IMG/VR virus record: IMGVR_UViG_3300033388_000874
Location: 639 to 64,638 of that record
DNA from: a virus
Direction: 5' to 3' (one strand)
DNA: 64,000 nt
Both the position numbers and the translations under genes were made by a program. This document shows, piece by piece, positions 16,125 through 60,002 of this stretch. Under the pieces are notes generated by a model. That model saw only the letters and a list, made by a program, of their open reading frames with translations, did no database searches and was not told the DNA's origin. Position 1 is the first letter of the stretch. Each line of letters opens with the position of its first letter.

Positions 16125-16373
16125 ATGTCAGATAAAGATGAGAAGGAAATCCTTCAACGGGTTGCGCGGCTTGAGCAGAGGGTCGACGACCGCAAGGAGA
16201 TCGACAAAAAGCGTGAGTCACAGATGGAGTCGATCAACTCCAAGCTGGACAGGATGGAACTTGACCTCGCTAGATACCGAGGTCTTGTTGGTGGCGTACT
16301 TCTTGTGGTTACTGCTATCGTGAGTTTTGCGAAGTTCTTCTGGGAAGACACCATTAAATTTTTTGGAAAATAA
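16125..16373 (+). CDS. small coiled-coil protein with C-terminal TM anchor
   Basis: 82 aa; charged heptad-like N-terminus, then LVGGVLLVVTAIVSFAKFFW. Confidence 0.4.
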   Translation: MSDKDEKEILQRVARLEQRVDDRKEIDKKRESQMESINSKLDRMELDLARYRGLVGGVLLVVTAIVSFAKFFWEDTIKFFGK

Positions 16374-16375
16374 TA

Positions 16376-16902
16376 TGAATGCACAGCTACAACAAAAGAT
16401 GCCAATATACTATTTCCACCCGCCGATCATCAAAGATGGGATCGCGATTGGACTTGAACATTTTTCAGATATGCAGGATGAAATTTATCCTCTGCATGAG
16501 GCGCATTATAACGAGACAGAAGTGCTTTATCTCGATGAGCCATTCAACCCAAATTATGAACGGTACTTCCCGATGGAGAAGGATGGTTCGTTTGTATGCT
16601 TCACCGTCAGGATTGGGTGGCAGATGGTCGCCTATATCCAGTACTATATTTATCAGGACTTGCACAGCCGCACCATTATGAATGGCAGGGAGGACGCATT
16701 CTTTGTGCATCCATCCGCTAGGAGTAAGGGAGTTGCGGGGCAGCTACTTACCTATGCAGAAGAAGCACTGGCGAGGGCAGGATGCAAGTACGTAGGCATG
16801 ACTACCAAGGCACCGTTGGGCGGTGTTGATATTGGGCCGTTCTTAGAGCGGAGAGATTACCGTCCTTGTGCTGTATATTACCAAAAGAAACTCACGGAGT
16901 AA
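16376..16902 (+). CDS. GNAT-family N-acetyltransferase
   Basis: ATG at 16376 after the previous stop (track extends to 16327); acetyl-CoA motif A 'HPSARSKGVAGQLL' and GNAT-like length (about 175 aa). Confidence 0.6.
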
Positions 16903-16908
16903 GAAGCT

Positions 16909-17985
16909 ATGTGTTGCAGTTCCCCACCCGACCCGCCTGATCTTTCTGGTCTTTCTGATGCTAGTGAAGAAGTAGGCCGCATGAATCAGCAGACTGCTCA
17001 AGAGCAGCTTGCTTGGGCACGTGAGCAGGATACGAACAACCGTGCGCTCCTTCAGGAAGTATTGGACGTTCAGCTTCCAGCCATGCGTGAGCAGATGGAA
17101 GTTGCCCAAGCTGACCGTTCCCGGTATGAAGAATTTTACCGTCCGTTCGAGGATGCGTTCGCTGAAGAAGCGGCCAACTACGACACCCCCGAGCGACGTG
17201 AGCGTGAGCGCGGCGGAGCTATCGCCGACGTTAATTCCCAATTCGATGCCGGTCGCCGGAACGCCCTACAGCGTCTCGAAGGTTACGGCGTTGATCCTTC
17301 CAGCACTCGTAACCAAGCACTCGACATCGGTGTACGCACCCAGCAGGCAATGGCGCAAGCCCAAGCTGCTACAGGCGCGACTCGTCGGGTGGAAGACATT
17401 GGCCGGGCGCTGAAGTCTGATGTAATCAATATGGGCCGTGGCGCACTGTCGAACGCGGCTGGTTTCTACGGACAAGCAGTGGGCGCAGGTAGCGCCGCAC
17501 AGGGTAACGCCCTGAACACAACGCAGTCCGGTGCTGGTGCTATCCAGTCAAGTCTTGGATTTTCCAACGCCGCATTATCCGGTTACGGTCAGGCCAGTAG
17601 CATTCAGAATTCAGGATTCCAGAATGAGATGAGTGTGTTTAACGCCGAGCAACAGCAAACCGCTGGCATGCTAAGTGCGGTCGGCGGCGTGGCTGGCATG
17701 TTTATGGCAGATGGCGGTGAGGTTGAGGGGCTTCCCAGTGGTGCTATGGCGGCTCAAGGTCGCGTAGGTGATCCACGTTACGGAGTACCGCAACAGGAAT
17801 TCACACAGGATGGGCCGGTTGATGGCCCCGGCGATGGCTCGGGTATCGATGACCGCGTTCCAGCACAGTTGTCAGAAGGTGAGTTCGTCATCCCTGCCGA
17901 CGTGGTACGTGCTAAAGGTGAGGAGTTCTTCGAGAAGTTACTTGAGAAGTATCACACACCTGCTGCACAACAGAGGGCAAACTAA
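16909..17985 (+). CDS. virion-associated protein (internal/ejected protein candidate)
   Basis: 358 aa; Gln/Ala/Gly-rich low-complexity centre; C-terminal 'ADGGEVEG...GEFVIPADVVRAKGEEFFEKL'; immediately upstream of the giant protein. Confidence 0.4.
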   Translation: MCCSSPPDPPDLSGLSDASEEVGRMNQQTAQEQLAWAREQDTNNRALLQEVLDVQLPAMREQMEVAQADRSRYEEFYRPFEDAFAEEAANYDTPERRERERGGAIADVNSQFDAGRRNALQRLEGYGVDPSSTRNQALDIGVRTQQAMAQAQAATGATRRVEDIGRALKSDVINMGRGALSNAAGFYGQAVGAGSAAQGNALNTTQSGAGAIQSSLGFSNAALSGYGQASSIQNSGFQNEMSVFNAEQQQTAGMLSAVGGVAGMFMADGGEVEGLPSGAMAAQGRVGDPRYGVPQQEFTQDGPVDGPGDGSGIDDRVPAQLSEGEFVIPADVVRAKGEEFFEKLLEKYHTPAAQQRAN

Positions 17986-19775
17986 TGTCAGGTATAGGAG
18001 CAGGTGCGTTCGTTGAAGGTCTACAAGGTGGCATTGCTTCACGTGATGCGATGGATCGCAACAAGCAATTCAAGCAAATGCGTAAGCTCGGTATCACTGA
18101 GAAGAAATACGAGTTAGCCGACAAGCGCGGTATAGCCGAAGCCGATTTAATGATGCAGGCAAAAGAAGGCGGCTATGACTTCGACCAAGCTGGGTTTGAT
18201 GAGGAATGGGCTGCATTCCAAGATGACAAAGACCCGGCCCTCCTCCGTTTCGGTAAGTGGATGGGTGGGAAGATGAGCGGTATGTTCGGCGGTAAGGGAG
18301 AAGAAGGAGGCTCTGAAGCACAGATGGCGATTGCCACTCCAAAAGTCGAGGCTCCAACGCCTGTTGAACGGTTCGGTGCATATGCTGATGGCGGCATTGT
18401 CCCCCATGGACGTTACGCGAATGGTGGTGTGGTTGATGACCCCACTGCCCCACGACCTTACTCTGACCCACGTCGTAGGAGAGAGGAAACTGAATCAGTT
18501 CTATCGGACTTGGCTCGTGCTACTAAAGAGAATGCGTTCGATGACACAGTAAATGTATGGCGCGGAGCCGATGATGCGATGTCCGAACGTAGTCAAGCCA
18601 TCAGTGATGCGGAAGGCCCACGTGAAACGATGGACGCAGTTCGTGGCTGGATGGGAGAGGGCATTAGAGGCACTGCTGCGTTAGGCGCAGGGCTGGTTAA
18701 AGATGTGGTTATCGATAATCCTGTCGTGCAAGGTGCGATGGGGTTCATGGGGTTTGATGGAGAGGGTTCGGAAGCACCCGCCGCAGATCAGGGCATACCC
18801 ACAACTGACGTACCGAGTACGCCGGAAGGTGATGCTATTGGTGCATCTGTTGATGAGCCAGAAAATAAACCCGAAGAAGTCGCACAACAGGCAGTTAGAA
18901 GTGCGGAAGAAGAATTTATAAAGAACCCCAATTACACATTGTTGGTCGATCAGGGCGTACGTCCCGAAGACCTTCCATCCATGACTACACAGGATTGGTC
19001 TGACTATCGTCGCAAGATAACCATGCATGCCATGCGTCAAGGCTCAACCCCGGCTGAAGCGCACCAGATGGTTGATAATCGTGTTACCCAAATGCAAATG
19101 GCTGGGTTCAATCGTCAAGCGATGATTGCCAATAAATACCTCCAGTCTGGACAAGCACGTGAAGCGTCAATGGCGCTGCGTCAGGCTTATCAGTATTTCC
19201 CCAATGGCGTAAGTGTCAAGTTTGGTAATACGGTTGATCCAAAGACAGGGCAGTCAGTCATCATCACTATGGGCGTCGATGAGGAGACTGGGGAGGCAAC
19301 TGGCACTCCTATGATTATCGATGTGAATCGCCTGAATGCAATGGTGGAGAACGCAAGTGATCCTTCCGCATTTCGTTCATGGACAAAGGACGGTCACGAT
19401 CTGCAAATGGAGATCAACAAATTGCAGTCCATCGATGACTACCGACAGGGTACTTTGGACATCGGTGCCTACAGAGCCGAGACTGGTCGTATAGGAGAGT
19501 TGACTGGCGGTGGGCGCGGTGCGATGACTGATGCGGAAGTTCGGCAAAGGAGCGAACTTTACATGAAGGTAGTGAATGAAGCCGGTCTAATGGAAGGTAT
19601 CGAGGGGCTTGATGAGGGCATAAACGCCCGAGCTTTGTATGATGCGATGGCGCAATACGAAAGGGTATCTGGAATAAGGGAGCCAGCTACCGTCGCCCGC
19701 AGAGTGCTTGAGGCTTATCAACTTAACCCCGACACCGGAGTACAAGAACTACTGGCAAACGCACGGGATCAGTAA
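17985..19775 (+). CDS. virion-associated protein (internal/ejected protein candidate)
   Basis: 596 aa; contains 'ADGGIVPHGRYANGGVVDD' related to the motif in 16909..17985 and 59748..60002; ATGA coupling. Confidence 0.4.
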   Translation: MSGIGAGAFVEGLQGGIASRDAMDRNKQFKQMRKLGITEKKYELADKRGIAEADLMMQAKEGGYDFDQAGFDEEWAAFQDDKDPALLRFGKWMGGKMSGMFGGKGEEGGSEAQMAIATPKVEAPTPVERFGAYADGGIVPHGRYANGGVVDDPTAPRPYSDPRRRREETESVLSDLARATKENAFDDTVNVWRGADDAMSERSQAISDAEGPRETMDAVRGWMGEGIRGTAALGAGLVKDVVIDNPVVQGAMGFMGFDGEGSEAPAADQGIPTTDVPSTPEGDAIGASVDEPENKPEEVAQQAVRSAEEEFIKNPNYTLLVDQGVRPEDLPSMTTQDWSDYRRKITMHAMRQGSTPAEAHQMVDNRVTQMQMAGFNRQAMIANKYLQSGQAREASMALRQAYQYFPNGVSVKFGNTVDPKTGQSVIITMGVDEETGEATGTPMIIDVNRLNAMVENASDPSAFRSWTKDGHDLQMEINKLQSIDDYRQGTLDIGAYRAETGRIGELTGGGRGAMTDAEVRQRSELYMKVVNEAGLMEGIEGLDEGINARALYDAMAQYERVSGIREPATVARRVLEAYQLNPDTGVQELLANARDQ

Positions 19776-22700
19776 TGTCAATCGCAGGTTTAGAGGATTA
19801 TCTGAATCGAGAGTTCGGTGAGCTAGACGAAGGAAGTCTGGAGCGCCAAACTGGTCGACGTGCAGATCGTCTTCTCGCAGAAGCACCAAGTTCAGCCTCC
19901 ACCACCGAAGTAGCGTCTGGTATCCCTGAGTGGAATCCGCCTGCTTCGGGTGGCGGTGGTCTTGACGACAATGCGGGACTCGGTGACGCAGCCAAGTTGT
20001 TCGCGGCTGGCAGTGTCGGTGTCGGTGAAGCTGTTGTTGGTGCTGGTGAGTATCTGGCGCGTCAGAATAAATTCACTCGCGGTACATTCGTTCAGGAAGG
20101 TCTAGGGGCTGCACGTAAAAGTATCGGCGGTTTCCGTGAGGCTATTATTGAGAGCGTCGACCCTGATGCAATGGATCGTGTTGGCCGTGAGTGGCTGAGT
20201 ACCGATCCGAGCAATACGATCTGGCAGGGTAGCCCTGTTGAGTTTGCGTCATCTGTTGGGATGAAGATGGCGCAGATGCTTCCATCCACACTCGCCACAC
20301 TTGCACCAGCAGCGGTATGGTTCCGTGGAGCGCAAGCCGGTAAAGCTCTTGCATACATGGGCGCGTCCGAAGCTGGCATCACAATGGGCAGCATCGCCAA
20401 TGGAATCTCAGATGAGATCGAGCAGACTCCCCACGAAGACCTAATGGCAGGGTCGCAGCGGTATAAAGTCATATACGGACAATTGGGTGACGAAGACGCT
20501 GCCAAAGACCAACTCATTACTGAGGCGCAGGGTGCAACACCAGCAGCCGCCGCCGCTTTCGTCGCTGCCATATCTATTACAGCCGGTCGCTATCTTGAAC
20601 CCGTGTTCCTCAAGACAGGTACACTCGGTCGATTCGGAGGCAAGGGTGGACTAGGAGCCGGTCAGCGAGTTGGGCGGGGCTTCCTTGCCGAAGCTGCACA
20701 GGAAGGCCCGCAGAGTGCAGGTGAGCAGCTTGCGACGAATATGTCGGCCAAGCTATACGATGAGAATAGGAACCTCTCAGAAGGCGTAGCAGAGGCTTCT
20801 GTTGAAGGTGCCATCATGGGTGGCCTGACAGGTGGTGCATTCACTGGAGCTATGGGCCAACGGCCTACAGCCCCGCCACCCCCACCCGTTGTCGAGGAAG
20901 GAGGCCAACAAGGTCTACCGGGTTTCGGCCCACAGGTTCGTGAGGAAGGGTTCGGTATTGAGCCGGAAGGCTATCGCGGCGATCCCAACCCACAGGAACA
21001 GTACGTTCCAGACACAGGTATGGGACTCCAGACAGAGTTCTTCCCTGATCCGGGTACGACGGAAGCCGTCATGGTTCCCGAGGAACAAGCACCGGGACAA
21101 GGAGTCCTGCCGCTGGGCATTGCTGGTACTGAGTCGTTGGCCGAGCGCGGCCCCGATCACCGTACACTCCAAGAGGGTGACATCGTACCTGACGAGATGG
21201 ATCAGCCTACCGCTGAGCCTGTCGAGGATATTCAGGCGCAGCTTGCAGACATGAAGGGTGCAAGTGGCCGCAGTGCGGTATACGTGTCACCAGCACAACG
21301 CAACGACAACTACCAGATTCCGAAGGGTGCGGTAGAAATCCGTAACTTCGATGGCAAGGGCGGTACGCTCATTGCTAAGAACCAAGCCGCTGCCGATCAT
21401 GCGCGCAAGATACGTGCTAGTGGTGGATCGATGCAGGCCATTATCGGTGAACTGACGATGGCTGGCGCAGGCAAACCAAACGTCAGAGCCGGATACGCAG
21501 TGCAGTTGGTTGATGAATCTGGCGCAGTGGCACGTGAGTCTTTGGTACGTACGAAGGCAGAGGCCACCGCGCTTGAGAAGCAGTGGGCACCGGACGGTAC
21601 GACACGTGTGTTGTCAGGGCCAGAAGCACTAGCGCGGCGTGGCGCGAAGATCGAGGAGGAGCAGCTTAACCTACGTACGGAAGACCCGGCACTGGTTGAC
21701 GAAGCAACACCTGATATGTTCGCACCGGGTCAGGCACCAACGCTCACAGCCGCCGAGAACCAGTCGGAGGGCGGTGCGTTCCAAGTCCAAATGAAAGACG
21801 ATGCCGGTAACGAGATCGTCACTGAAACTTTCGACACAGTGGAGGAGGCAGAAGCACGGGCAGATGAACTCGCTAAAGACTTTCCAGATGGGAACATTAC
21901 ATCCAAGCAACTGCGGGTGGAGGCAGCACCCGATAAGGCTGGCCTCTCTACTACGAAGCGTGTACCGAAGAAGGTACTTAAGGGGCCACCTGAAGGCCCG
22001 CCGACAGGTATGGATAAGCCAGAAGTGTCGACAGAACGTACACGTCCCCCGGAAGTGTCGATAGCACCGGAAGAATTCGACGAGACACAATCCGTCAAGG
22101 ACATTGAAAACCTCCCAGACTTCAGGGCACATTACAGCGTTATCACCGAGGAAGCGCAGCCGAACAAAACGACGAAGGTTGTGGAGACACGTGAGTCCCG
22201 CAAGTTCACCAGTAGGCAGCAGGCCCGATCATACGCAACACGTATGACGAATAAGGCAAGGGCGGCTGCACCAAAAGACTTCGATGTTACGGAAGGCAAG
22301 GTTGACGCGGTTGAATCGCCCGAGCTTGAGGGCCAGTTCGCGTCGGCGTTGCAGTCGAGAGCGGATCGTAAGCAGGAGACAACTGCCGAGGAAGAAGGCA
22401 AGAAGGTCGGCCACTTCATAAGCGATAAAGCCGTCTCCACCACTGGGGAAGGAGTTACCGACACGAGCAGGCAACTGACTGCTGAGTATCGTGCGCAGAA
22501 CACCAGCCCATCACAGAAGGTTCAATTCATACGTCGTGAACGTGCGTCGGTGTTACGCCGTCGTGCGCCGGTCAAGAATGTTGGTGCCGCCAAAGCGACC
22601 ACCGTCAAGAAAGGCGGCGGTACACAAGAGACAGAGACTAAGGCGCTGACCTATGAAACGGTAAGCGGCGAGGAGACAACCGAACAAACTACCAAGCGGA

Positions 22701-25700
22701 AAGCGGTAGTCAAGGAAGCTAACACACGTTTGAGATTCGCTTTGAATCGTGCGAAGAAATTCCTCGACCGATTCGATACTACCGGTGAGTACGGAACGTA
22801 CGTTGCAGATAATACGAATGTGGATGGCACATTGACACAAGCGGCCCGTGATTTCATGGCGGCTCGTGCGGTACTACACGAACTCGCCGACTTCGCAAAT
22901 TCAGCACTCGCATCTGGAAACACGAGCAACGCCCACGCAAAGATGGCGAAGAAGGTTGCTATCGCATTGGAGCGGGTGAAGCTCGGCAAGATGACTCCGC
23001 AGTTGTTCGCGAAAGAGTTTAGCGCGGTCGCCGAGTCAACAGACTATAAGATGTTGAGGAACGTACCTGCTCGCTTCAAAGAGTCTGCCACGGTGCGCGA
23101 CAAGAAGATCACCAAGAGCAACAACGAACGCCACAATGCGAACGTGCGTCAGGATCGCTTGGAGAATAAGTGGGGTAAGGACAAGATTTGGACAGAGAAT
23201 GTCGGCCCCATATTCCGTAAGTTCAGCGACGCAATGCTATCAGGTATGCGGTTGCAGTCGGGTGCGATAACCCCCTACTACAACCCAACGCTGCTTGAGA
23301 TTGAGGGGCTGCGATATGCTCTACGCACGTTCCGCAAGATGACCCAGCGGTATCCGACGAGTGAGTTCTACACACCTGTTAAGGAACAGCTTGAGTACTA
23401 CGGCTTTGAGTTCGATGCCAGTGGTGATGTCATCGTACAAGATTTTAGCCCGAGCGAGAACTTGCTGGGTTCCAGCTTCATCGAGAAGCATGGTGTATCG
23501 AAGAAAGCTGCTGGGGAAATTAGTGGTACTGGCCCAGTTCGCACAGATGTAATCGTGACACCTGATTCGACAGCGGTGCGCGGTGCGCGTGACAAGGCTG
23601 ATAAGGTTAAAGCGGTCAGTGGAATCAACATGGCGAACGCCTTGCTTGAGAAATTACAGGGTATGGTTTATACCGCGAAAGTCACAATTAACGGTATAAA
23701 GCGTCAGGAGCAGCGATTCATACGCGGGCTTAGAAAGCTCGGCGCATGGACAGATACGTCTCCCGGCATGGGAAAGATCAGTTTTGGTGGGTATGCGAGC
23801 AGAACGTACCGTCTGGTTGGCCCGAGGTTGGACAATCGCACCATGAGTAAGGGGGAGGCCAAGGGTGCAATTGAGCATTTGAAGCGTTTTGCGATGCCTC
23901 GCGAATTAGCGGCATTGGCCCGTTCGCAGCAGAATGTTGACGCTGCCAGTAACATCGACGAATTCATAGATACTAACAGCACGGAGTTCTTTTTAGAAGA
24001 ATTGAAACTCGAAGAAAATTCACCAGCCCTTGACAATGCTGCCAGTACTGTGGGTGACATTATCCGCGACAAGTACTCGGCGGCGTCGATCAACGATGTA
24101 CTCGATGCCATCATTGAGCAATTACCATCTGACCACTTCTATCATCGGTTAGCAGTGAAACTTCGTTCGCTGGGTATGGCGGATGTGACGTTGCAGTACG
24201 ACTGGACTGGTTCAAAATTCCACGGTAAGAAACGCAACCATCTCGGCATGTTTGATCCGAGTACCAACCGTGCGTATCTGAACCGGCGCAAGATGCTCGA
24301 TGACATGGATGTGATGTCAGGTAGCAAGGCTATCCACACCATGCTCCATGAAATGCTCCACGCTGCCACGCACAATGCGTTGGCTCATAGCTGGCCCCTA
24401 CGCAACCAGATGTTCCAGATACGTGCTGCCGCTTACCACCAGTGGGTGAAGGCAAACGGCAAGAAGAACCTACCTATAGGTTTGCGGCTTACTGATAGTC
24501 AGGGCAATCCCGCACCTGTTGATGAATTCGTTGTGGAAGTGTTTTCCGATGAAAACTTGCAGGATCACCTTCGCAACACGCCTGTAGAATTGGAAGGGTC
24601 GGCAACTGGCCTATCCGCCGCGTGGTCGAAGATCAAAGACGTACTTATCGAGATTCTGGGATGGGGTAACGTACCCGAAGTCCGTAACCTACTCGACGGA
24701 TTCATGGCTACCGCCGATGAAGTATTTTCTCAGGCAGGGGTTGCGCGTGAAGGTTCGGACGTACTCAATCTTGAATTGTATGACACACAACTTGGGAACG
24801 TCGCACGATCTGCATGGGATAAGATCAGCCAGCACAGCAGCATTGTCCAACGTGTGAAAGATGCAGGTGGGTCAGTTTTACGTAATATCCAGACGCTTGA
24901 GCAGTTCGTCGAGAACTACGCCAAGGAGTTCGTGGCAGATGGTAAGTCGATGCTCCAGCAGTACAGTGATGCATTCAACGCTCGTAACGCGAGAGCTAGT
25001 GAGTACATGAACGTGCCACAGGCTATCTCGCAGCAGTGGACGAAGTTGGAAGAAACTGACCCTGCCGGTGCGCTGGAACTTAGTCGCATCGGTACGGTAG
25101 CATCATTGAATCGTGTCACTGCCGCTGAAGCACCTGAAGACGGTAACGCGACTCACGCTGACATACACGCCCGTTACAATGCGTTATCAGCCGAAGCGAA
25201 GAAGGTCTACCAAGCCACGACAAAATACTATACCGAAGCATCCCAGCGCGAGCATATGTTCCTGCTCCAGTCGGCACTGCGCGGTATTATGACGAACAAG
25301 CAAGGTATCGGCATTGACCTCGACGTATTCGAGTCGAAGTTCAACGTCGCAGAGCTTGGCAAGATCGAGTCACGTGAAGACTTATCCAACATGATCGGGG
25401 AATACGTACCCGAAGAAGCGCGGTCTGAGATGATCGACCAGCTTTACAGAATGTCTGTCGTTCCACGGCAGCAGAAAGGCGACTACTTCCCTGCCATGCG
25501 TTACGGGGATGAGGTCGTGTATGCAGAGAAGTTAGCGCAGGAACAAATTTTTGAGGATCGCAAAGAAGCATGGGGTGTTCGCGCAGAGATAGCTGCCACA
25601 GACCCGACGCTTGACGTACAGATGTTGAAGACCGACGATGGAATGTGGGCCGTACGTACGTTCGAGCGCGAGTTTGTTATGGCTGAATCAGTGAGTGAGA

Positions 25701-27805
25701 TTGAGGAAGCTCACGCCCGGCTGGTACAGGAGTACGGAGCCGAGAATGTGTTCGACCCGCAGAAGCGTCGGAGCAAGCAGACCGATATCGATATCGGATC
25801 GAACCAAGCACTGAACAGCATTATCAAAACGCTAGACGGTAATCCCGCAGCGCAGGCAGCAATCAAAAACCTCTACCTTCGTAGTCTAAGCGAGGCTTCC
25901 TTCCGCAAGCACGAGATGAAGCGGAAGAACCGGCGCGGTCTGAACTATGACGTACAACACAGGAACCTTGCCGCCTACGCGAAGCAGGCTTCCTACTACA
26001 CTGCCCAGCTTGAGTTCGGCTGGAAGATGGCTGAATCCCTCAAGGGAATGGACGCTTTCGTGAGTCGCCGTCAGGCTGGCCCGAAAGACACGCCAACCCG
26101 TAAACTGCGAGCGATTGTCAATCACCTCCATGACCGAGATCAAATGTCCGTCGATCTTCCAGACATACAGCAGCTAGTTCGCAAGGGTGTCGAGTACACG
26201 CACTTCTTCATGCTTACGTCGCCGTCGTACTGGGCGATCAACGCCACACAGCCTTGGTTGGTGACAGCACCGACGATGGCTGGCCGTCATGGTTGGGGGC
26301 AGACAATCGCAGCACTGGGCGCGGTACAGAAGCTCATCAAGGCACCGCTGATCCAGCAGGCCGGAAGCTCCAAGGGTGGGTTCGCCGCGTTCTTCAAGGG
26401 CGGTAAGTCTAAGCTCGAAGATGCGTTTGATGTGATACACCAGTTGGAAACCCATATTAGAGAGAACGCGCCGTCGCAGGCGGATGAGTACATCGCCCTG
26501 CTTGAGACACTGCGTTCCAGACACATAATTGATATCAACGTCTTCACAGAGATGCGTGACCAAGCAGCCGGTAAGTCACAGAGCGCGGCTGATAAAACTA
26601 TTGACGCCTCACGTATCATGGCCCATCTGACCGAGGTCAATAACCGCGTTCTTACCGCCCTGTCAGCCTATCAGCTTGAGATCAATGCAGGCTCTACGGT
26701 TGAGGAAGCGACGAAGTACGCAGGTGACATGGTGTCGCAGACGCAGTTCAATTACTCCAGTGCTAACAAGCCGCCGCTGTTTCAGGCTGGTGGGCCGTTG
26801 GGTGGAGTCGCACCACTCATGTTCCAATTCATGCAGTGGCCTCAACATATGTATGCGCATCTCATCCGCAACTATCGCGGCATGGTTGACGCGGGCATTA
26901 TGGAGCGATCTGAAGCACGATCAGCGTTGCTCGGATTACTGGGAACACACGTTGCCGTTGGTGGCATGGTGGGTATGACGCTCCAGCCGATCAAATGGGC
27001 CATCGGCTTCACAATGATGGCGCTGGGCGATGACGACGAGCCGTACACATTTGCCAATGCGGTGAATGGTCGGACGGCGGATCGACTGATGACCGGAGCT
27101 ATGGACGACCTGTTTGGAACTACAGCAGCAACTTTCATCGCGAAGGGCATCCCCGCTGGCCTCGGCATCGACCTGTCCACTCGTATGAGTATGGGCACTG
27201 TCTATTTCGTGGACTTGCGCGGTGACACTGCCGAGAGCAACATCGGTAGCATCGTAGCCAGCTTCGGCGGTGCGACGCTGAACCAAGCCGTCAATCTGGC
27301 GCGGGGCATGGGGCGGATAGCTGAAGGTGACATAATGCGTGGTGTCGAGCAGATGAGTCCGAAGATTGCACGAGACTTCTTGCGGTCAATTCGGTACTAT
27401 AATGAAGGACTTGTGAATAATGCTGGTGATACAGTCATTCCAACGAGCGAGATGGGCTACGGCCAAATCGTTCCGCAGATACTCGGGTTTGCACCAACTG
27501 ATGTAGCCCAGTTCTACGAAGCGCAAAACGCCATCAAGGACGCAGAATCATTTGCACGTGACCGTAAGGAAGAATTATTGAAGCAGTTCCGACTGGCCGA
27601 GTCGGGTGAACGTCAGCAGGTTTTGAGCGAAGTACGGAGTTTTAATAAAGCGTTCCCTGTGGAACGCATTACATACTCGACGCTGCTATCGAACGTGAAA
27701 GGCAAGAAGGTACGCGAATCGAGATTCAGACGCTACGGAGCAAATATCGATGAGAAAAAAGCAAGGTTCTACAAAAGACACGGCGACCCCTTCCGCGAAG
27801 ACTAA
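19775..27805 (+). CDS. giant (2676 aa) virion/ejected multidomain protein with zincin-like HExxH motif (polyvalent-protein-like)
   Basis: single uninterrupted 8-kb ORF; 'SGSKAIHTMLHEMLHAATHNALAHSW' HExxH metallopeptidase-like signature in the middle; Gly-rich N-terminus, long charged segments; position just after other ejected-protein candidates. Confidence 0.55.
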   Translation: MSIAGLEDYLNREFGELDEGSLERQTGRRADRLLAEAPSSASTTEVASGIPEWNPPASGGGGLDDNAGLGDAAKLFAAGSVGVGEAVVGAGEYLARQNKFTRGTFVQEGLGAARKSIGGFREAIIESVDPDAMDRVGREWLSTDPSNTIWQGSPVEFASSVGMKMAQMLPSTLATLAPAAVWFRGAQAGKALAYMGASEAGITMGSIANGISDEIEQTPHEDLMAGSQRYKVIYGQLGDEDAAKDQLITEAQGATPAAAAAFVAAISITAGRYLEPVFLKTGTLGRFGGKGGLGAGQRVGRGFLAEAAQEGPQSAGEQLATNMSAKLYDENRNLSEGVAEASVEGAIMGGLTGGAFTGAMGQRPTAPPPPPVVEEGGQQGLPGFGPQVREEGFGIEPEGYRGDPNPQEQYVPDTGMGLQTEFFPDPGTTEAVMVPEEQAPGQGVLPLGIAGTESLAERGPDHRTLQEGDIVPDEMDQPTAEPVEDIQAQLADMKGASGRSAVYVSPAQRNDNYQIPKGAVEIRNFDGKGGTLIAKNQAAADHARKIRASGGSMQAIIGELTMAGAGKPNVRAGYAVQLVDESGAVARESLVRTKAEATALEKQWAPDGTTRVLSGPEALARRGAKIEEEQLNLRTEDPALVDEATPDMFAPGQAPTLTAAENQSEGGAFQVQMKDDAGNEIVTETFDTVEEAEARADELAKDFPDGNITSKQLRVEAAPDKAGLSTTKRVPKKVLKGPPEGPPTGMDKPEVSTERTRPPEVSIAPEEFDETQSVKDIENLPDFRAHYSVITEEAQPNKTTKVVETRESRKFTSRQQARSYATRMTNKARAAAPKDFDVTEGKVDAVESPELEGQFASALQSRADRKQETTAEEEGKKVGHFISDKAVSTTGEGVTDTSRQLTAEYRAQNTSPSQKVQFIRRERASVLRRRAPVKNVGAAKATTVKKGGGTQETETKALTYETVSGEETTEQTTKRKAVVKEANTRLRFALNRAKKFLDRFDTTGEYGTYVADNTNVDGTLTQAARDFMAARAVLHELADFANSALASGNTSNAHAKMAKKVAIALERVKLGKMTPQLFAKEFSAVAESTDYKMLRNVPARFKESATVRDKKITKSNNERHNANVRQDRLENKWGKDKIWTENVGPIFRKFSDAMLSGMRLQSGAITPYYNPTLLEIEGLRYALRTFRKMTQRYPTSEFYTPVKEQLEYYGFEFDASGDVIVQDFSPSENLLGSSFIEKHGVSKKAAGEISGTGPVRTDVIVTPDSTAVRGARDKADKVKAVSGINMANALLEKLQGMVYTAKVTINGIKRQEQRFIRGLRKLGAWTDTSPGMGKISFGGYASRTYRLVGPRLDNRTMSKGEAKGAIEHLKRFAMPRELAALARSQQNVDAASNIDEFIDTNSTEFFLEELKLEENSPALDNAASTVGDIIRDKYSAASINDVLDAIIEQLPSDHFYHRLAVKLRSLGMADVTLQYDWTGSKFHGKKRNHLGMFDPSTNRAYLNRRKMLDDMDVMSGSKAIHTMLHEMLHAATHNALAHSWPLRNQMFQIRAAAYHQWVKANGKKNLPIGLRLTDSQGNPAPVDEFVVEVFSDENLQDHLRNTPVELEGSATGLSAAWSKIKDVLIEILGWGNVPEVRNLLDGFMATADEVFSQAGVAREGSDVLNLELYDTQLGNVARSAWDKISQHSSIVQRVKDAGGSVLRNIQTLEQFVENYAKEFVADGKSMLQQYSDAFNARNARASEYMNVPQAISQQWTKLEETDPAGALELSRIGTVASLNRVTAAEAPEDGNATHADIHARYNALSAEAKKVYQATTKYYTEASQREHMFLLQSALRGIMTNKQGIGIDLDVFESKFNVAELGKIESREDLSNMIGEYVPEEARSEMIDQLYRMSVVPRQQKGDYFPAMRYGDEVVYAEKLAQEQIFEDRKEAWGVRAEIAATDPTLDVQMLKTDDGMWAVRTFEREFVMAESVSEIEEAHARLVQEYGAENVFDPQKRRSKQTDIDIGSNQALNSIIKTLDGNPAAQAAIKNLYLRSLSEASFRKHEMKRKNRRGLNYDVQHRNLAAYAKQASYYTAQLEFGWKMAESLKGMDAFVSRRQAGPKDTPTRKLRAIVNHLHDRDQMSVDLPDIQQLVRKGVEYTHFFMLTSPSYWAINATQPWLVTAPTMAGRHGWGQTIAALGAVQKLIKAPLIQQAGSSKGGFAAFFKGGKSKLEDAFDVIHQLETHIRENAPSQADEYIALLETLRSRHIIDINVFTEMRDQAAGKSQSAADKTIDASRIMAHLTEVNNRVLTALSAYQLEINAGSTVEEATKYAGDMVSQTQFNYSSANKPPLFQAGGPLGGVAPLMFQFMQWPQHMYAHLIRNYRGMVDAGIMERSEARSALLGLLGTHVAVGGMVGMTLQPIKWAIGFTMMALGDDDEPYTFANAVNGRTADRLMTGAMDDLFGTTAATFIAKGIPAGLGIDLSTRMSMGTVYFVDLRGDTAESNIGSIVASFGGATLNQAVNLARGMGRIAEGDIMRGVEQMSPKIARDFLRSIRYYNEGLVNNAGDTVIPTSEMGYGQIVPQILGFAPTDVAQFYEAQNAIKDAESFARDRKEELLKQFRLAESGERQQVLSEVRSFNKAFPVERITYSTLLSNVKGKKVRESRFRRYGANIDEKKARFYKRHGDPFRED

Positions 27806-29393: not shown

Positions 29394-29829
29394 CCAAGCA
29401 CTCTATGCTTTAGAAGAAGGCTTTAGTGGTTCAACGGGTCACAGCACGTCCACGCGGTCGCAGCTTGACAGCTTGGCCGCTGACGTGTGTTTCTACTACG
29501 GCACTGCCGTACCAAACATCCGGTTCATCAACACCCGAAGAAACACCCACGCAGCTTGGTTCGACCATGAGGTAGTTCTGAACAGAGCTAGGGAAGGTGC
29601 AAATGGTATGACGCTGCTGCACGAGTTGGCGCACTACTTAACTGATGAATTCTATACAGGTGTTGAGCATCACGGGCCAGAGTTCGTCGCGATCTACATG
29701 CACCTTCTAGATAGGTGGAAGTACCTACCCAATAAATGCTTCAGATTACTGGCAAAGCAAAACCGCCTCAAGATCGGGCGGCGCTACAGGCCCATCGCAT
29801 TTAGAACTGGAAGACGATCCGTAGATTAA
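29377..29829 (+). CDS. small HExxH zinc metallopeptidase-like protein (SprT/ImmA-like)
   Basis: ATG at 29377 overlapping the upstream stop region (track extends to 29323); 'GMTLLHELAHYLTDEFYTGVEHHGPEF' HExxH...H motif; the last 29 nt overlap the convergent OMP gene. Confidence 0.45.
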   Translation: MTVGSDQALYALEEGFSGSTGHSTSTRSQLDSLAADVCFYYGTAVPNIRFINTRRNTHAAWFDHEVVLNRAREGANGMTLLHELAHYLTDEFYTGVEHHGPEFVAIYMHLLDRWKYLPNKCFRLLAKQNRLKIGRRYRPIAFRTGRRSVD

Positions 29830-57573: not shown

Positions 57574-59751
57574 ATGGCTACAGGTTCTCAAGGAATACCC
57601 GGACAAAACGACTCCGACAACTATGGCGGTGGTGTTGACATGGGCGGCGGTCAGGGACTCATACGTGTAGTCTCCAACTCTGATCTCATGGAACAGGAGC
57701 GTATTCAGGCCGAGGCCGAAGCCAACGCAGCAGAGCAGGAACAGCGCGAAATCGAGAACTCACTCGCTGCCTACATCCGATCACGCATGACTGACATGCG
57801 CAACTTCCGAAACGCCGAAGGAATTTCCGAACGATTACTGGCCGCGCTGCGCACCTATAAGGGCGAGTACGACCAGACAACTCTCAACGCGATTAAGCAA
57901 TTCGGTGGCAGCGAAGTCTATGCCCGCGTTACATCGACCAAATGTCGAGCAGCCACCGCCCTATTACGAGACGTGTACCTTGGTGCAGACCGCCCTTGGG
58001 ACATCGAGCCAACCCCACACCCCACCGTCCCGACAGAGGTTGAGGGTGATATTCAAGAGCTAGTCAAGATCGAAGTTCAGACCATGATGCAGGCCGGTGC
58101 GCAGATCGACCAGCAGGCCATCACGGATCGCGTCAACCTTCTGCGCAAACAGGCTGAGAGAGCGTCGAAGAAAGTCGCTGTCGAGGAAGCCGACCGAGCA
58201 GGTGAACGACTTGATGACATGCTTACGGAAGGTGGGTTTTATGAAGCCTTCGCCGAATTTTTGATTGACCTCCCGATCTTCCCCTACGCCTGTGTCAAAG
58301 GCCCATCAGTTCGCAACAACGAGCAGACGAAATGGGTCGAGGGTCAGCCGGTGCGCCAATCAGTTCCCAAGATGTATTGGGATCGCGTATCACCATTCGA
58401 CATCTATTGGTCGCCCGGTGCCGCGCACGTCAAGCAGGCTGACTTCGTTGAGCGAATTCAACTGAGTCGTGCCGAACTGAGTCAGGTGAAAGACCTCCCC
58501 GGTTACAACACCGAAGCTGTCAACGAAGTTCTGGAAAGAGCGCGAATGGATGGCTTGCACGAATGGTGGGATACCATCGACACCGAACGTGCGGAGTTGG
58601 AAGACCGCGAGCGATGGGCAAGAACTGCCACGTCGTTGATCGACACCGCCGAGTTTACCGGATACATCTCAGGATACATGCTGAGAGAGTTCGGCATGAC
58701 CGAGCAAGAAGTTCCAGATGCAACTCAGGAATATCATGTCAAGGCATGGTTGATCGACCGCTGGGTCATCAAGGTTCAAATGAACCCTACGAATAGCAAC
58801 CGCCCCCCGTACTACATTTCGAGTTTCGAGCAGGTTCCGGGTGCGATGATTGGTCAGGGCTTGCCTGACTTACTTGAAGACGTACAGGGTGTCTGTAATG
58901 CAGCCGCTCGTGCGCTGGTCAACAATGCCAGTATCTCGTCTGGGCCGCAGGTAGTCATCAACGATGGCGTAATGCAGCCGACTGACGACGATGAACTCTA
59001 CCCGTGGAAGCGTTGGCATGTGAATTACGATCCTGCAATGGTGTCTTCTGGCACTGAGCCGGTTGCGTTCTACCAGCCGAATATCAATGGTGCCGAACTC
59101 ATGGGCATCTATAAAGAGTGGAACTCGATGGGTAACGAGATTTCCGCTATTCCGAGTTACATGACTGGCAACGAGAAAGTCGGCGGTGCTGGTCGTACTG
59201 CGTCGGGCTTGGCAATGCTCATGGGCAACGCAAGCAAGACGCTTCAGAATGTCGCTGCCGCGATTGACAGGGATGTCATTCAGCCGCTCCTGACGGAGCT
59301 ATTCGATATGGTAATGCTGACGCAGCCGGGCACTTTTAAGGGCGATGAACTGATCGTCGTCAAGGGAGTCAATCATGCGGTAAAACGTGAGCAGGATAGA
59401 ATGCGCCAGCTTGAGTTCTTACAACTCACAGCTAACCCAATGGATATGCAAATTATGGGGCCAGCCGGTCGTGCTAACATTCTTAGGAGTGTTGCCACGA
59501 ACCTTGGCTTGGAACACGAGAAGACTATTCCTGATGATGAGGAAATTCGAGCGCAAATTGCCGCCGCTGAGCAAGCTCAAGCAGCACAGGCACAAGCAGA
59601 AGCACAAGCAGCCGGGGGTGGGCAAACGGGCGATCCCCAGAACACTCCCCGTCCCAAAGAATCCCGTGCAGGCCCGGAGGCGGCACGTGAGGAAGTTGAA
59701 GGTGACTTTACGGGGCCGACTGGTCGGCCCGGAATGAGGGCAGGTGGATGA
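57574..59751 (+). CDS. portal (head-tail connector) protein
   Basis: 725 aa directly downstream of TerL; charged/Ala-Gln-rich C-terminal tail typical of portal C-termini; RBS AGGAAAA. Confidence 0.6.
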   Translation: MATGSQGIPGQNDSDNYGGGVDMGGGQGLIRVVSNSDLMEQERIQAEAEANAAEQEQREIENSLAAYIRSRMTDMRNFRNAEGISERLLAALRTYKGEYDQTTLNAIKQFGGSEVYARVTSTKCRAATALLRDVYLGADRPWDIEPTPHPTVPTEVEGDIQELVKIEVQTMMQAGAQIDQQAITDRVNLLRKQAERASKKVAVEEADRAGERLDDMLTEGGFYEAFAEFLIDLPIFPYACVKGPSVRNNEQTKWVEGQPVRQSVPKMYWDRVSPFDIYWSPGAAHVKQADFVERIQLSRAELSQVKDLPGYNTEAVNEVLERARMDGLHEWWDTIDTERAELEDRERWARTATSLIDTAEFTGYISGYMLREFGMTEQEVPDATQEYHVKAWLIDRWVIKVQMNPTNSNRPPYYISSFEQVPGAMIGQGLPDLLEDVQGVCNAAARALVNNASISSGPQVVINDGVMQPTDDDELYPWKRWHVNYDPAMVSSGTEPVAFYQPNINGAELMGIYKEWNSMGNEISAIPSYMTGNEKVGGAGRTASGLAMLMGNASKTLQNVAAAIDRDVIQPLLTELFDMVMLTQPGTFKGDELIVVKGVNHAVKREQDRMRQLEFLQLTANPMDMQIMGPAGRANILRSVATNLGLEHEKTIPDDEEIRAQIAAAEQAQAAQAQAEAQAAGGGQTGDPQNTPRPKESRAGPEAAREEVEGDFTGPTGRPGMRAGG

Positions 59752-60002
59752 GAATCAAACATAAGTATGGAGACTGCATGGCCGATGGCGGTGTAGTCCA
59801 CGGATCGCCGCTGAGTACACCGAAGCCCGGTGGCACTACACGCAAGCGTCCGAAGGTAGGAGACAAGAGTGGCGATACGCGGCTCCTGAACCCGAAGAAA
59901 CGAACGCCCAGCAAACCGGCATCCAAAAAGAAGAAGGCTTCCGGGTCTGCTTTTAGAGACTACCGTGGCACAAAGGGCGCTATTGAAGACGCTGGCGGTT
60001 AG
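59748..60002 (+). CDS. small basic protein with ADGGVV motif
   Basis: 84 aa, Lys/Arg/Pro-rich; 'MADGGVVHGSPL' related to motifs in 16909..17985 and 17985..19775. Confidence 0.35.
   Translation: MRIKHKYGDCMADGGVVHGSPLSTPKPGGTTRKRPKVGDKSGDTRLLNPKKRTPSKPASKKKKASGSAFRDYRGTKGAIEDAGG

What the first reader, a model, noticed from the sequence alone, without database searches (positions are those of the whole stretch)
16909..27805. A 2676-aa giant protein with a zincin HExxH signature, preceded by two proteins sharing a Gly-rich 'ADGG(I/V)V' motif
A single 8-kb ORF follows two proteins of 358 and 596 aa. The position suggests internal or ejected proteins, or polyvalent proteins. Its only sharp motif is '...HTMLHEMLHAATHNALAHSW', an HExxH+H metallopeptidase-like signature. 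The short motif 'ADGGxV' (ADGGEVEG, ADGGIVPHGRYANGGVV, MADGGVVHG) recurs in the two upstream proteins and in the 84-aa basic protein after the portal. This hints at a shared interaction or packaging determinant. Giant polyvalent proteins carrying anti-defence effector domains are incompletely catalogued, so the remaining roughly 2400 aa may hide novel effector domains.
Basis: partly seen in the sequence, partly recalled or inferred. Interest (0 to 1): 0.55.

Follow-up and report, generated by a model that had tools for sequence, protein, structure and literature searches.

The report
Giant ejected phage protein with zincin domain
The three genes look like the internal "ejection protein" set of an uncultured, podovirus-like phage; the 2676-residue protein belongs to a known class of giant virion proteins built like the phage N4 virion RNA polymerase but without the polymerase, so it is a fairly ordinary member of that class apart from a conserved short motif that I found no description of.

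Summary
Three translationally coupled + strand genes encode 358, 596 and 2676 aa. There is one HExxH, at aa 1525-1529, and an [FYM]A[DN]GG motif in both upstream proteins and in the 84-aa protein after the portal.

The giant protein is a PLxRFG-domain polyvalent protein (NF032893, 322 bits). Its HExxH sits in a predicted zincin fold. H, E and H are kept in 58-59 of 63 relatives.

That domain is homologous to one in the solved PhiM1 tetrameric ejection protein (the T7 gp16 counterpart) and in the N4 virion RNA polymerase. The N-terminal domain also matches N4 vRNAP. The protein has no cysteine in 2676 residues, like N4, DEV and PhiM1 ejection proteins.

Cultured relatives (RHph_TM29, GP4, Bcep22-like JC1) have the same gene order: GNAT, small, medium, giant. 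The JC1 counterparts were found in virions by mass spectrometry.

No hidden effector domain was found. The central 800 aa are either variable or specific to this clade.

The ADGG motif is conserved (115 of 120 protein-A homologs). With a GEFVIPADVV element it forms a module also present in HMO-2011 gp49. Its function is unknown.

Verdict: a new member of a known kind, of modest interest.

The parts
16327..16902 (+). GNAT acyltransferase gene immediately upstream. It is a conserved neighbour of the module.
   Evidence: Pfam Acetyltransf_1, 2.4e-9; PHROG acetyltransferase. The same position is held in L001-L005, RHph_TM29 and GP4.
16909..17985 (+). Protein A (358 aa), a virion structural protein family and candidate small ejection protein. 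The N-terminus reads MCCS-PPxPPDLG.
   Evidence: phrog_8003 'virion structural protein', 5e-64. Homologs in RHph_TM29, GP4, PEp14, Parlo and Burkholderia phages. 569 metagenomic homologs. No PDB relative by sequence.
17704..17724 (+). ADGG motif copy in protein A (MADGGEV, aa 266-272).
   Evidence: 115 of 120 closest homologs keep [MLFIY]ADGG at this place. RHph_TM29 has LASGGAV there.
17848..17931 (+). Second half of the bipartite module: DDRVPAQLSEGEFVIPADVVRAKGEEFF (aa 314-341).
   Evidence: GE[FY]V[IV]P is kept in 106 of 120 homologs. Weak hits to tape-measure PHROGs. The same element lies at the N-terminus of HMO-2011 gp49 and in CRP-207 and CRP-9 (28.5 bits).
17985..19775 (+). Protein B (596 aa), a cysteine-free candidate middle ejection protein.
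   Evidence: Syntenic 600-960 aa proteins in all related loci. 0 Cys. Conserved C-terminal half, AYQYFPNG...WTKD. No PDB or Pfam relative.
18381..18434 (+). Two motif copies in protein B (YADGGIV aa 133-139, YANGGVV aa 144-150), in a variable linker.
   Evidence: Homologs carry 1-5 copies in the same linker, with variants such as AHGG, ASGG and KHGG.
19775..27805 (+). Giant protein (2676 aa, 0 Cys): a PLxRFG-domain polyvalent protein.
   Evidence: It is identical to P0001, on a 64,638-bp JGI contig.
19952..20869 (+). N-terminal domain (aa ~60-365), conserved across the whole family and homologous to aa ~296-445 of the N4 virion RNA polymerase.
   Evidence: Many invariant residues. Conserved also in distant DarB-like relatives. 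Local hmmsearch: N4 gp50 34.3 bits, RHph_TM29 giant 30.5 bits.
21182..21649 (+). Small conserved domain (aa ~470-625; PTAEP..DIQAQL..NFDGKGG..VQL.DE.G).
   Evidence: Conservation profile and nearly invariant columns. No family or structure match.
21650..22591 (+). Variable, charged, low-complexity linker (aa ~626-939).
   Evidence: Column conservation 0.21-0.39, gaps up to 61%, 66-76% PEKSQGDTA residues.
22592..23974 (+). Clade-specific, mostly helical region (aa 940-1400) of unknown function.
   Evidence: No PDB match. A profile search of 1.84 billion proteins gave 60 hits. The long ones (roughly 1,000-3,600 aa) are giants of this family, and in 25 of the 26 full-length giants that align over most of the profile the match ends about where the query's does (near aa 1400-1800); the rest are shorter proteins or fragments.
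24137..24724 (+). Zincin-like metallopeptidase (MPTase) domain (aa ~1455-1650). HExxH is at 24347-24361 (aa 1525-1529). The proposed third ligand, Glu1584, is at 24524-24526.
24860..25258 (+). LPD39-like domain (aa 1696-1828).
   Evidence: Pfam PF18858, 20.9 bits, below the cut-off of 27. Homologs pass clearly, for example P0052 at 149.8 bits.
25490..25507 (+). The family's name-giving PLxRFG motif, here PAMRYG (aa 1906-1911), followed by a beta-rich subdomain.
   Evidence: Y1904, R1909 and G1911 are invariant in 63 of 63; P1906 in 60 of 63. Strands at model residues 437-494.
25667..27760 (+). C-terminal ~700-aa 'tail' domain (aa 1965-2662). It is all-helical with one Gly-rich hydrophobic segment (aa 2385-2403).
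   Evidence: NF032893, 9.8e-96, 321.7 bits, cut-off 100. PHROG DarB-like C-terminus. tblastn to 33 phages. Hydropathy. No solved structural relative.
59748..60002 (+). 84-aa basic protein after the portal, with one N-terminal motif copy (MADGGVV, 59778-59798).
   Evidence: A family of 51 homologs has 0-3 motif copies and an invariant core TTRKRPKVGDK...RDYRGT.GAI.DA.

Best explanation
Genes A (358 aa), B (596 aa) and the 2676-aa gene are most likely the internal-virion, or ejection-protein, operon of a roughly 64-kb phage whose closest cultured relatives are podoviruses. They would be packaged in the head and expelled through the portal and tail at infection. There they would bridge the Gram-negative envelope ahead of the DNA, in the way T7 gp14/15/16, PhiM1 gp50/49/48 and N4/DEV gp52/51/50 do.

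The giant protein is the large last member of that set. It has the same end-architecture as the N4 virion RNA polymerase: an N-terminal domain that matches the N4 region reported to be needed for injection, and a C-terminal block. The C-terminal block comprises the zincin MPTase, LPD39, the PLxRFG motif and a 700-aa helical tail, and it corresponds to the N4 region reported to be needed for encapsidation. The polymerase core, or the DarB-type methylase/helicase cargo of other relatives, is replaced by a variable linker and a clade-specific helical region.

The HExxH...E site probably binds a metal. Whether it cleaves something (the protein itself, a partner, or a host envelope protein) or only stabilises the fold is not known.

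The ADGG motif, together with GEFVIPADVV in protein A, is a short linear module in disordered linkers. I infer that it docks these proteins to a shared virion partner such as the portal or core.

Shown here: homologies, conservation, predicted fold, synteny and absence of cysteine. Inferred: packaging, ejection, metal binding and the role of the motif.
For: - Family: NF032893 PLxRFG domain at 321.7 bits against a cut-off of 100. 104 giant homologs, 43 of them with E = 0 covering 46-100% of the query (full length in the closest).
- Link to N4 vRNAP: the N-terminal profile scores 34.3 bits on gp50 aa ~296-445, and the MPTase profile matches at TLIHELVHAST. Iyer et al. 2017 (PMC5512222) describe the HExxH MPTase in the N4 C-terminal encapsidation region, and the N-terminal region as needed for injection.
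- Cysteine: 0 Cys in 2676 aa (22.7 expected; P about 1e-10) and 0 in 59 of 60 homologs checked. B has 0 Cys. PhiM1 gp41-43, N4 gp50-52 and T7 gp15 also have 0. DEV gp71 and N4 gp50 are noted as Cys-free in PMC11445570.
- Gene order: small, medium, giant, with TAATG coupling. The GNAT-A-B-giant synteny holds in 5 of the 6 metagenomic loci, in RHph_TM29 and in GP4.
- Virion presence in a relative: in Bcep22-like JC1, gp64, gp68 and the giant gp69 were detected in virions by mass spectrometry (PMC9144972). Equivalence to A, B and the giant rests on synteny.
- Cargo in relatives: some carry peptidoglycan hydrolase domains (SLT, GH108, Hydrolase_2, Peptidase_M15_3), as T7 gp16 does.
- Motif: conserved in A (115 of 120), in B (1-5 copies) and in the 84-aa protein (0-3 copies), and in HMO-2011 gp49 next to its portal.
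Against: - There is no direct evidence that these particular proteins are in a virion or are ejected.
- A and B show no detectable sequence similarity to T7 gp14/15, PhiM1 gp41/42 or N4 gp52/51.
- T7 gp16 itself is not matched.
- Only weakly hydrophobic segments are present.
- The N4 matches come from local searches of six or fewer sequences, and their scores are modest.
- N4 vRNAP is reported to be packaged unprocessed (PMC5512222). This argues against obligatory self-cleavage by this type of domain.
Confidence: 0.7

Rival explanations
1. The giant protein is mainly an anti-defence effector carrier, a DarB-like antirestriction polyvalent protein. On this view its unannotated central part is a novel enzymatic effector that acts on host defences after injection.
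For: PHROG labels the matching family 'DarB-like antirestriction'. Relatives carry Eco57I-type methylase, SNF2 helicase, ddrB-ParB, InPase and ART domains between the same N- and C-terminal blocks. Iyer et al. 2017 (PMC5512222) propose conflict roles for such proteins. LPD39 is flagged there as possibly enzymatic. Region 940-1400 has several invariant residues.
Against: This member has no methylase, helicase or other known effector domain. The PHROG match covers only the C-terminal tail. Region 940-1400 is never found outside this family or as a separate protein, and in nearly all full-length giants it sits at about the same place. That is not how the mobile cargo domains behave. Region 626-939 is poorly conserved and of low complexity.
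Confidence: 0.15
2. The HExxH...E site is a structural metal site or a degenerate fold element, needed for folding or encapsidation of the giant protein, and has no peptidase activity.
For: The same domain lies in the N4 vRNAP region required for encapsidation, and N4 vRNAP is packaged unprocessed (PMC5512222). The DEV authors describe it only as a putative zinc-binding motif (PMC11445570). It is present in the structural PhiM1 ejectosome subunit.
Against: The catalytic Glu of HExxH is kept in 59 of 63 relatives, as strictly as the two metal-binding His. The full zincin topology, including the beta-sheet that normally binds substrate, is predicted. Purely structural sites often lose the general base.
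Confidence: 0.3
3. The ADGG motif is a maturation-protease cleavage site, or another processing signal, rather than a docking motif.
For: It lies in disordered linkers between conserved parts of A and B and near the N-terminus of the 84-aa protein. Two related loci encode a ClpP-like protease two genes downstream of the giant gene. Copy number is variable.
Against: No prohead protease was recognised in this window. Up to five copies in tandem (L004 protein B) is unusual for a cleavage site. In protein A and HMO-2011 gp49 it is coupled to a second conserved element 25-50 residues away, which looks more like a binding module.
Confidence: 0.15
4. The giant ORF is a tape-measure-like length ruler, or the ADGG repeats are compositional chance.
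For: Weak PHROG hits of protein A residues 295-346 to tape-measure families (E 0.003-0.009). The linkers are Gly-rich.
Against: The giant protein itself has no tape-measure hit. All cultured relatives are ~60-kb phages without tape measures; GP4, JC1 and Parlo are described as podophages in the papers seen. The motif count is 4 against 0.12 expected, and it is conserved in 115 of 120 homologs.
Confidence: 0.03

Closest known systems
PLxRFG domain-containing giant 'polyvalent' virion proteins of ~60-kb phages, often annotated DarB-like antirestriction protein (Rhizobium RHph_TM29, Serratia Parlo, Erwinia PEp14, Klebsiella LASTA/SopranoGao, Ochrobactrum POI1126). The DarB-like giants of Ralstonia GP4 and Bcep22/JC1 gp69 share the gene neighbourhood, but GP4's giant matched only weakly here.
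   Same: The C-terminal MPTase-LPD39-PLxRFG block and the N-terminal domain are shared. The gene neighbourhood GNAT, protein A, protein B, giant is the same. No cysteines. The JC1 counterpart is found in virions by mass spectrometry.
   Different: This clade lacks the methylase/helicase (DarB) module and every other recognised cargo domain. Instead it has a variable linker and a clade-specific 460-aa helical region. Only aa ~2030-2668 is detectable by tblastn in cultured phages, at 22-30% identity.
Phage N4 gp50 / DEV gp71 virion RNA polymerase (Schitoviridae), the large member of a three-gene ejection operon
   Same: A homologous N-terminal domain (N4 aa ~296-445). The same type of HExxH zincin domain in the C-terminal part. 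Giant size. No cysteines. It is the last and largest gene of a small-medium-giant operon.
   Different: There is no T7-like RNA polymerase core here. The C-terminal 700-aa PLxRFG tail was not matched in N4. Partners A and B show no sequence similarity to N4 gp52 and gp51.
PhiM1 gp48 tetrameric ejection protein (PDB 8vb2), the phiKMV-type counterpart of T7 gp16; also 9sfn_G 'internal virion protein'
   Different: Similarity is confined to about 140-200 residues. PhiM1 gp48 is 1263 aa and lacks the N4-like N-terminal domain and the PLxRFG tail. T7 gp16 itself has no such domain.
Zincin-like MPTase domains of polyvalent proteins (Iyer, Burroughs, Anand, de Souza and Aravind 2017), related to the ArdC C-terminal domain, SprT/Spartan, IrrE and minigluzincins
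   Same: An HExxH helix, a Glu on a later helix, and a three-stranded sheet preceded by a helix. The position is inside a giant virion protein.
   Different: No Pfam zincin model reaches threshold on this sequence. There is a 50-70-residue insert between the HExxH helix and the Glu helix. Activity and substrate are unknown.

Membership tests
PLxRFG domain-containing protein (NCBIfam NF032893) | Score above the curated cut-off on the ~680-position C-terminal model | tested here: met
   321.7 bits against a cut-off of 100, aa 1965-2662, model positions 23-679 of 681.
PLxRFG domain-containing protein (NCBIfam NF032893) | The PLxRFG sequence motif | tested here: met
   Present as YFPAMRYG (aa 1904-1911). 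Y, R and G are invariant in 63 of 63 relatives and P in 60 of 63. L is replaced by A and F by Y in this protein.
Zincin-like metallopeptidase (MPTase) of polyvalent proteins | HExxH on a helix, plus a Glu ligand on a following helix | tested here: met
   H1525, E1526 and H1529 in 58-59 of 63; E1584 in 54 of 63. Both lie on predicted helices, model residues 116-139 and 183-192.
Zincin-like metallopeptidase (MPTase) of polyvalent proteins | Zincin core fold (helix, three-stranded sheet, two helices) | tested here: met
Zincin-like metallopeptidase (MPTase) of polyvalent proteins | Metal binding and peptidase activity | not testable with these tools
   Needs biochemistry.
Pfam LPD39 (PF18858) | Score above the gathering threshold | tested here: inconclusive
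   20.9 bits against a cut-off of 27 at aa 1696-1828. Aligned homologs pass: the domain is precomputed for many of them, and P0052 scores 149.8 bits.
P1 DarB-type antirestriction protein | N6-adenine methyltransferase plus SF2 helicase modules | tested here: not met
   No methylase or helicase hit in Pfam, NCBIfam, PHROGs or PDB searches of the giant protein. The 'DarB-like' PHROG match is to the C-terminal tail only.
N4-like virion RNA polymerase | T7-like single-subunit RNA polymerase core | tested here: not met
   No polymerase family hit. No PDB hit to N4 mini-vRNAP in the whole-protein profile search.
N4-like virion RNA polymerase | N-terminal 'injection' region and C-terminal HExxH region | tested here: met
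   34.3 bits to gp50 aa ~296-445. 17-18 bits to the HExxH region. These were small-database local searches.
Podophage ejection-protein trio (T7 gp14/15/16 type) | Three adjacent co-oriented genes of increasing size in the structural region | tested here: met
   358, 596 and 2676 aa, with TAATG overlaps. Conserved synteny.
Podophage ejection-protein trio (T7 gp14/15/16 type) | Sequence or structural homology of each member to a known ejection protein | tested here: inconclusive
   The giant shares only the zincin domain with PhiM1 gp48 and 9sfn_G. A and B have no match to T7, PhiM1 or N4 partners.
Podophage ejection-protein trio (T7 gp14/15/16 type) | Presence in the virion and ejection into the host | not testable with these tools
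   Only indirect support: mass spectrometry of JC1 gp64, gp68 and gp69 (PMC9144972), with equivalence by synteny.
Tail tape measure protein | Homology to tape-measure families and a long-tailed phage context | tested here: not met
   No tape-measure hit for the giant. Cultured relatives are ~60-kb phages without tape measures, several of them described as podophages.

The most novel reading that the evidence does not exclude
The bipartite element is [hydrophobic]-A-D/N-G-G-x-V, followed 25-50 residues later by DDxVPAxLSxGE(F/Y)VIPADVVRxxG. It may be a portable incorporation or ejection signal that targets otherwise unrelated internal proteins to a common site, such as the portal or core. Carriers seen here are protein A, protein B, the 84-aa portal-adjacent protein, and HMO-2011-type gp49. 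It would then be analogous in concept to the T4 capsid-targeting sequence but new in sequence.

A second, weaker possibility concerns the conserved upstream GNAT. It may acylate the conserved N-terminus of protein A (MCC in this clade, MG in distant relatives), giving a lipid- or acetyl-modified ejection protein.
Probability: 0.2. Interest if true: 0.65.

Novelty: new member of a known kind. Interest (0 to 1): 0.35.

Why it matters
It places an abundant group of uncultured ~64-kb phages, with many relatives in metagenomes including Tara Oceans, into a common scheme. In that scheme the giant 'DarB-like' or PLxRFG proteins, the N4 virion RNA polymerase and phiKMV-type gp16 analogues share end-modules: an N-terminal domain and a zincin domain. 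They differ in the cargo carried between those modules.

This window shows what may be a near-minimal version, with no recognisable cargo. That is useful for asking what the shared modules do on their own.

The conserved HExxH...E site in structurally solved ejection proteins has received little comment. The PhiM1 paper does not mention it. It gives a direct mutational handle on ejectosome function.

The ADGG/GEFVIP module is a candidate targeting signal. If confirmed, it could be used to load foreign proteins into phage heads.

Tried and rejected
- Megablast of the 10.9-kb region against 50,697 phage records found nothing.
- Pfam on A, B and the giant gave only a sub-threshold LPD39 hit.
- PDB sequence searches with A, B and their family profiles found nothing. 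The same was true for region 940-1400.
- The profile search of 1.84 billion proteins with region 940-1400 found only the same family. The 'hidden mobile effector domain' idea was therefore dropped.
- Profiles of A and B against T7 gp14/15, PhiM1 gp41/42 and N4 gp51/52/53/54 gave no significant hits.
- T7 gp16 has one HExxH-like string (HERLH) but no match to the domain profile. It was rejected as a homolog.
- Literature searches for 'ADGG' plus phage, and for 'internal virion protein' plus HExxH, returned nothing. The PDB entries 9sfn and 23sg could not be traced to a paper.
- The promoter and terminator scan showed nothing above shuffled expectation.
- Several alignment or prediction submissions failed on size limits.
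Full report
**What is in the sequence.** The three ORFs are exactly as reported: 16909-17985 (358 aa, "A"), 17985-19775 (596 aa, "B") and 19775-27805 (2676 aa), all on the + strand. The A/B and B/giant junctions are TAATG stop/start overlaps, so the three are probably translated as a unit.

They lie in a + strand structural block. Upstream are tail-fibre-like genes, a GH108-type endolysin and a GNAT acyltransferase. Terminase, portal and head genes are at the other end of the window. The giant protein is identical to a protein on a 64,638-bp JGI contig, so the window is essentially a whole phage genome. No tRNA gene was found, and there is no nucleotide-level match in 50,697 phage records.

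**The HExxH.** There is one HExxH, at aa 1525-1529. A single HExxH turns up in about 4% of shuffles of this protein, so the motif alone says little. Conservation is what counts. In an alignment of 27 full-length relatives (29-82% identical), H1525, E1526 and H1529 are invariant, as are E1584, F1585 and E1588 of a DEFVAEAFSN motif. In a 63-sequence alignment that includes 20%-identical DarB-like giants, H, E and H are kept in 58-59 of 63 and E1584 in 54 of 63. The signature is therefore HExxH plus a downstream Glu.

**Link to ejection proteins.** A profile of aa 1400-1700 searched against all PDB sequences finds three phage proteins:
- an "internal virion protein" (9sfn_G, 8.5e-11);
- the PhiM1 "tetrameric ejection protein gp48" (8vb2_A, 1.7e-6);
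- a "gp10" (23sg_S, 1.2e-3).

The same profile also matches the N4 virion RNA polymerase gp50 at TLIHELVHAST. Iyer et al. 2017 had already described an HExxH zincin "MPTase" there, inside the region needed for encapsidation (PMC5512222). T7 gp16 is not matched.

**The rest of the giant protein.**
- C-terminal tail, aa 1965-2662: NCBIfam NF032893 "PLxRFG domain" (321.7 bits, cut-off 100).
- The name-giving motif is YFPAMRYG at aa 1904-1911, the most conserved spot in the family.
- aa 1696-1828 is a sub-threshold LPD39 match that is clear in homologs.
- aa ~60-365 is conserved across the whole family, including distant relatives. In a local search it matches N4 gp50 aa ~296-445 (34.3 bits; motifs SPxY, ARxQ, E..QEG.Q..QLAQNIA). 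This lies in the N4 region reported to be needed for injection (PMC5512222).
- aa 470-625 is a small conserved domain with no match.
- aa 626-939 is poorly conserved, gapped and of low complexity.
- aa 940-1400 is helical with some invariant residues but has no PDB relative. A profile search of 1.84 billion representative proteins found 60 hits. The long ones are giants of this same family, and in nearly all full-length giants the match ends about where the query's does; the rest are shorter proteins or fragments.

Distant relatives carry recognisable cargo between the same N-terminal domain and C-terminal LPD39/PLxRFG block: InPase, Eco57I-type methylase, SNF2 helicase, LPD1/3 and ddrB-ParB. 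Some also have SLT, GH108, Hydrolase_2 or Peptidase_M15_3. This protein has none of them.

A 1200-residue model of the C-terminal part (pLDDT 74, pTM 0.63) is almost all helical, with one beta-rich subdomain after the PLxRFG motif. It has no convincing match among solved structures.

**Cysteine.** The giant protein has no cysteine in 2676 residues. The other large genes of the window have 0.85% Cys, so 22.7 would be expected (P about 1e-10). Of 60 homologs checked (1,912-4,660 aa), 59 have none and one has a single Cys. B also has none. A has only the two at its N-terminus.

PhiM1 gp41-43, N4 gp50-52 and T7 gp15 also lack Cys, and the DEV paper notes the same for DEV gp71 and N4 gp50 (PMC11445570). 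From general knowledge, proteins that cross the oxidising periplasm unfolded are under pressure to avoid disulfide formation. I take this as independent support for ejection.

**Relatives and context.** By tblastn only the tail (aa ~2030-2668, 22-30% identity) is found in cultured phages. These are ~60-kb phages, several of them described podophages, whose giants are annotated DarB-like or PLxRFG: Rollin, RHph_TM29, POI1126, Parlo, PEp14, LASTA and others. Protein A belongs to phrog_8003 "virion structural protein" (5e-64) and has homologs in RHph_TM29, Ralstonia GP4-like, Burkholderia, PEp14 and Parlo phages.

The order GNAT, A, B, giant is conserved in five of six metagenomic loci (the sixth has no recognised GNAT) and in RHph_TM29. 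It also holds in GP4, with a PAPS reductase inserted. In Bcep22-like JC1 the syntenic gp64, gp68 and the giant gp69 were detected in purified virions by mass spectrometry (PMC9144972). The equivalence of these to A, B and the giant is by synteny.

DEV (N4-like) has a gp73-gp72-gp71 operon interpreted as outer-membrane pore, periplasmic tunnel and giant vRNAP (PMC11445570). A and B, however, have no detectable similarity to T7, PhiM1 or N4 partners.

**The ADGG motif.** [FYM]A[DN]GG occurs four times in the window proteome against 0.12 expected, always in + strand genes.
- In protein A it is kept in 115 of 120 closest homologs, mostly as MADGGEV. RHph_TM29 has LASGGAV there, and GP4 lacks the whole C-terminal part.
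- In protein B the linker holds 1-5 copies, with variants AHGG, ASGG and KHGG.
- In the 84-aa family there are 0-3 copies. The invariant part of that protein lies elsewhere (TTRKRPKVGDK...RDYRGT.GAI.DA).
- In protein A the motif is followed about 50 residues later by DDRVPAQLSEGEFVIPADVVRAKGEEFF, kept in 106 of 120 homologs.
- The same two-part element sits at the N-terminus of HMO-2011 gp49 (FDEGGLLQEGGSI...DDIPAQLSEGEFVMPADVVRFHG). That is a 762-aa protein encoded just after the portal, and it is otherwise unrelated.

The motif is real, modular and portable. It lies in disordered linkers of putative internal proteins. I found no description of it. A docking role is my inference. A cleavage-site role is the main alternative.

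**Mechanism and verdict.** The best-supported reading is an ejection-protein operon. Its large member is built like the N4 vRNAP or a DarB-like giant, with an N-terminal injection-type domain and a C-terminal zincin-LPD39-PLxRFG block, but with no recognisable cargo.
- Shown: homologies, conservation, predicted fold, synteny and absence of cysteine.
- Inferred: packaging, ejection, metal binding, any proteolysis and the function of the motif.

Ejected polyvalent protein, zincin fold and conserved motif all stand. The third ligand is Glu, not His, and the hope of hidden effector domains is not borne out. This is a new member of a known kind. The modest interest lies in the apparently cargo-less architecture, in the shared zincin module across ejection proteins, and in the motif, for which I found no description.

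Noticed in passing
window 16909-16950 and 16327-16902: Protein A starts MCC[S/Q]xPPxPPDLG in 109 of 120 closest homologs; distant homologs start MG(K/G). The gene immediately upstream is always a GNAT acyltransferase, described as RimL-like in the JC1 paper. This suggests N-terminal acylation or acetylation of protein A, or of another virion protein.
   Followed up: partly
window 27750-29393: The gene after the giant ORF is a homolog of the phage T5 A1 protein ('DNA transfer protein', phrog_1745, 8.5e-149; 49% identity to Xanthomonas phage Xoo-sp13 A1). It has metallophosphatase-like motifs (GDTH, HDLHDG, SSNHDD, GHSH) and an extra N-terminal CxxC zinc ribbon. Its start overlaps the giant ORF by 56 nt, as in related loci.
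   Followed up: partly
window 29323-29829: A 168-aa ORF with its own HExxH (TLLHELAHYL) and a sub-threshold SprT-like match (6e-5). It is a second small zincin at the end of the + strand block. In loci L001 and L004 that position holds a ClpP-like protease instead.
   Followed up: no
window 19775-27805 and 17985-19775: There is no cysteine at all in the giant protein (22.7 expected) or in B. The same holds in 59 of 60 homologs and in N4, PhiM1 and T7 gp15 ejection proteins.
   Followed up: yes
L011 8875-11163 (Puniceispirillum phage HMO-2011 gp49): A portal-adjacent 762-aa protein carries the same DEGG/EGG plus DDIPAQLSEGEFVMPADVVRFHG module at its N-terminus. Roseobacter phages CRP-207 and CRP-9 match too.
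   Followed up: partly
window 59748-60002: The 84-aa basic protein family has a strictly conserved core (HGAP..TPKPGGTTRKRPKVGDK and RDYRGT.GAI.DA) that is independent of the ADGG copies. It is reminiscent of small basic internal proteins, and its function is unknown.
   Followed up: partly
homolog P0023 (3166 aa): This relative has a second copy of the zincin domain (FVHTFLHELSHAATIE plus a second YGL..DEFVAEAWSN) upstream of the usual one.
   Followed up: no
homologs P0044, P0051, P0071, P0077, P0081, P0088, P0089: Some family members carry peptidoglycan-hydrolase domains (GH108, SLT, Hydrolase_2, Peptidase_M15_3). Two carry sigma-70 region 4 domains (P0046, P0097).
   Followed up: no
window 5590-8232: An 880-aa protein matches PHROG 'internal virion protein' (phrog_511, 1e-117) but also has a Laminin_G_3/ConA-like domain. 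That looks more like a tail or fibre component than an internal protein.
   Followed up: no
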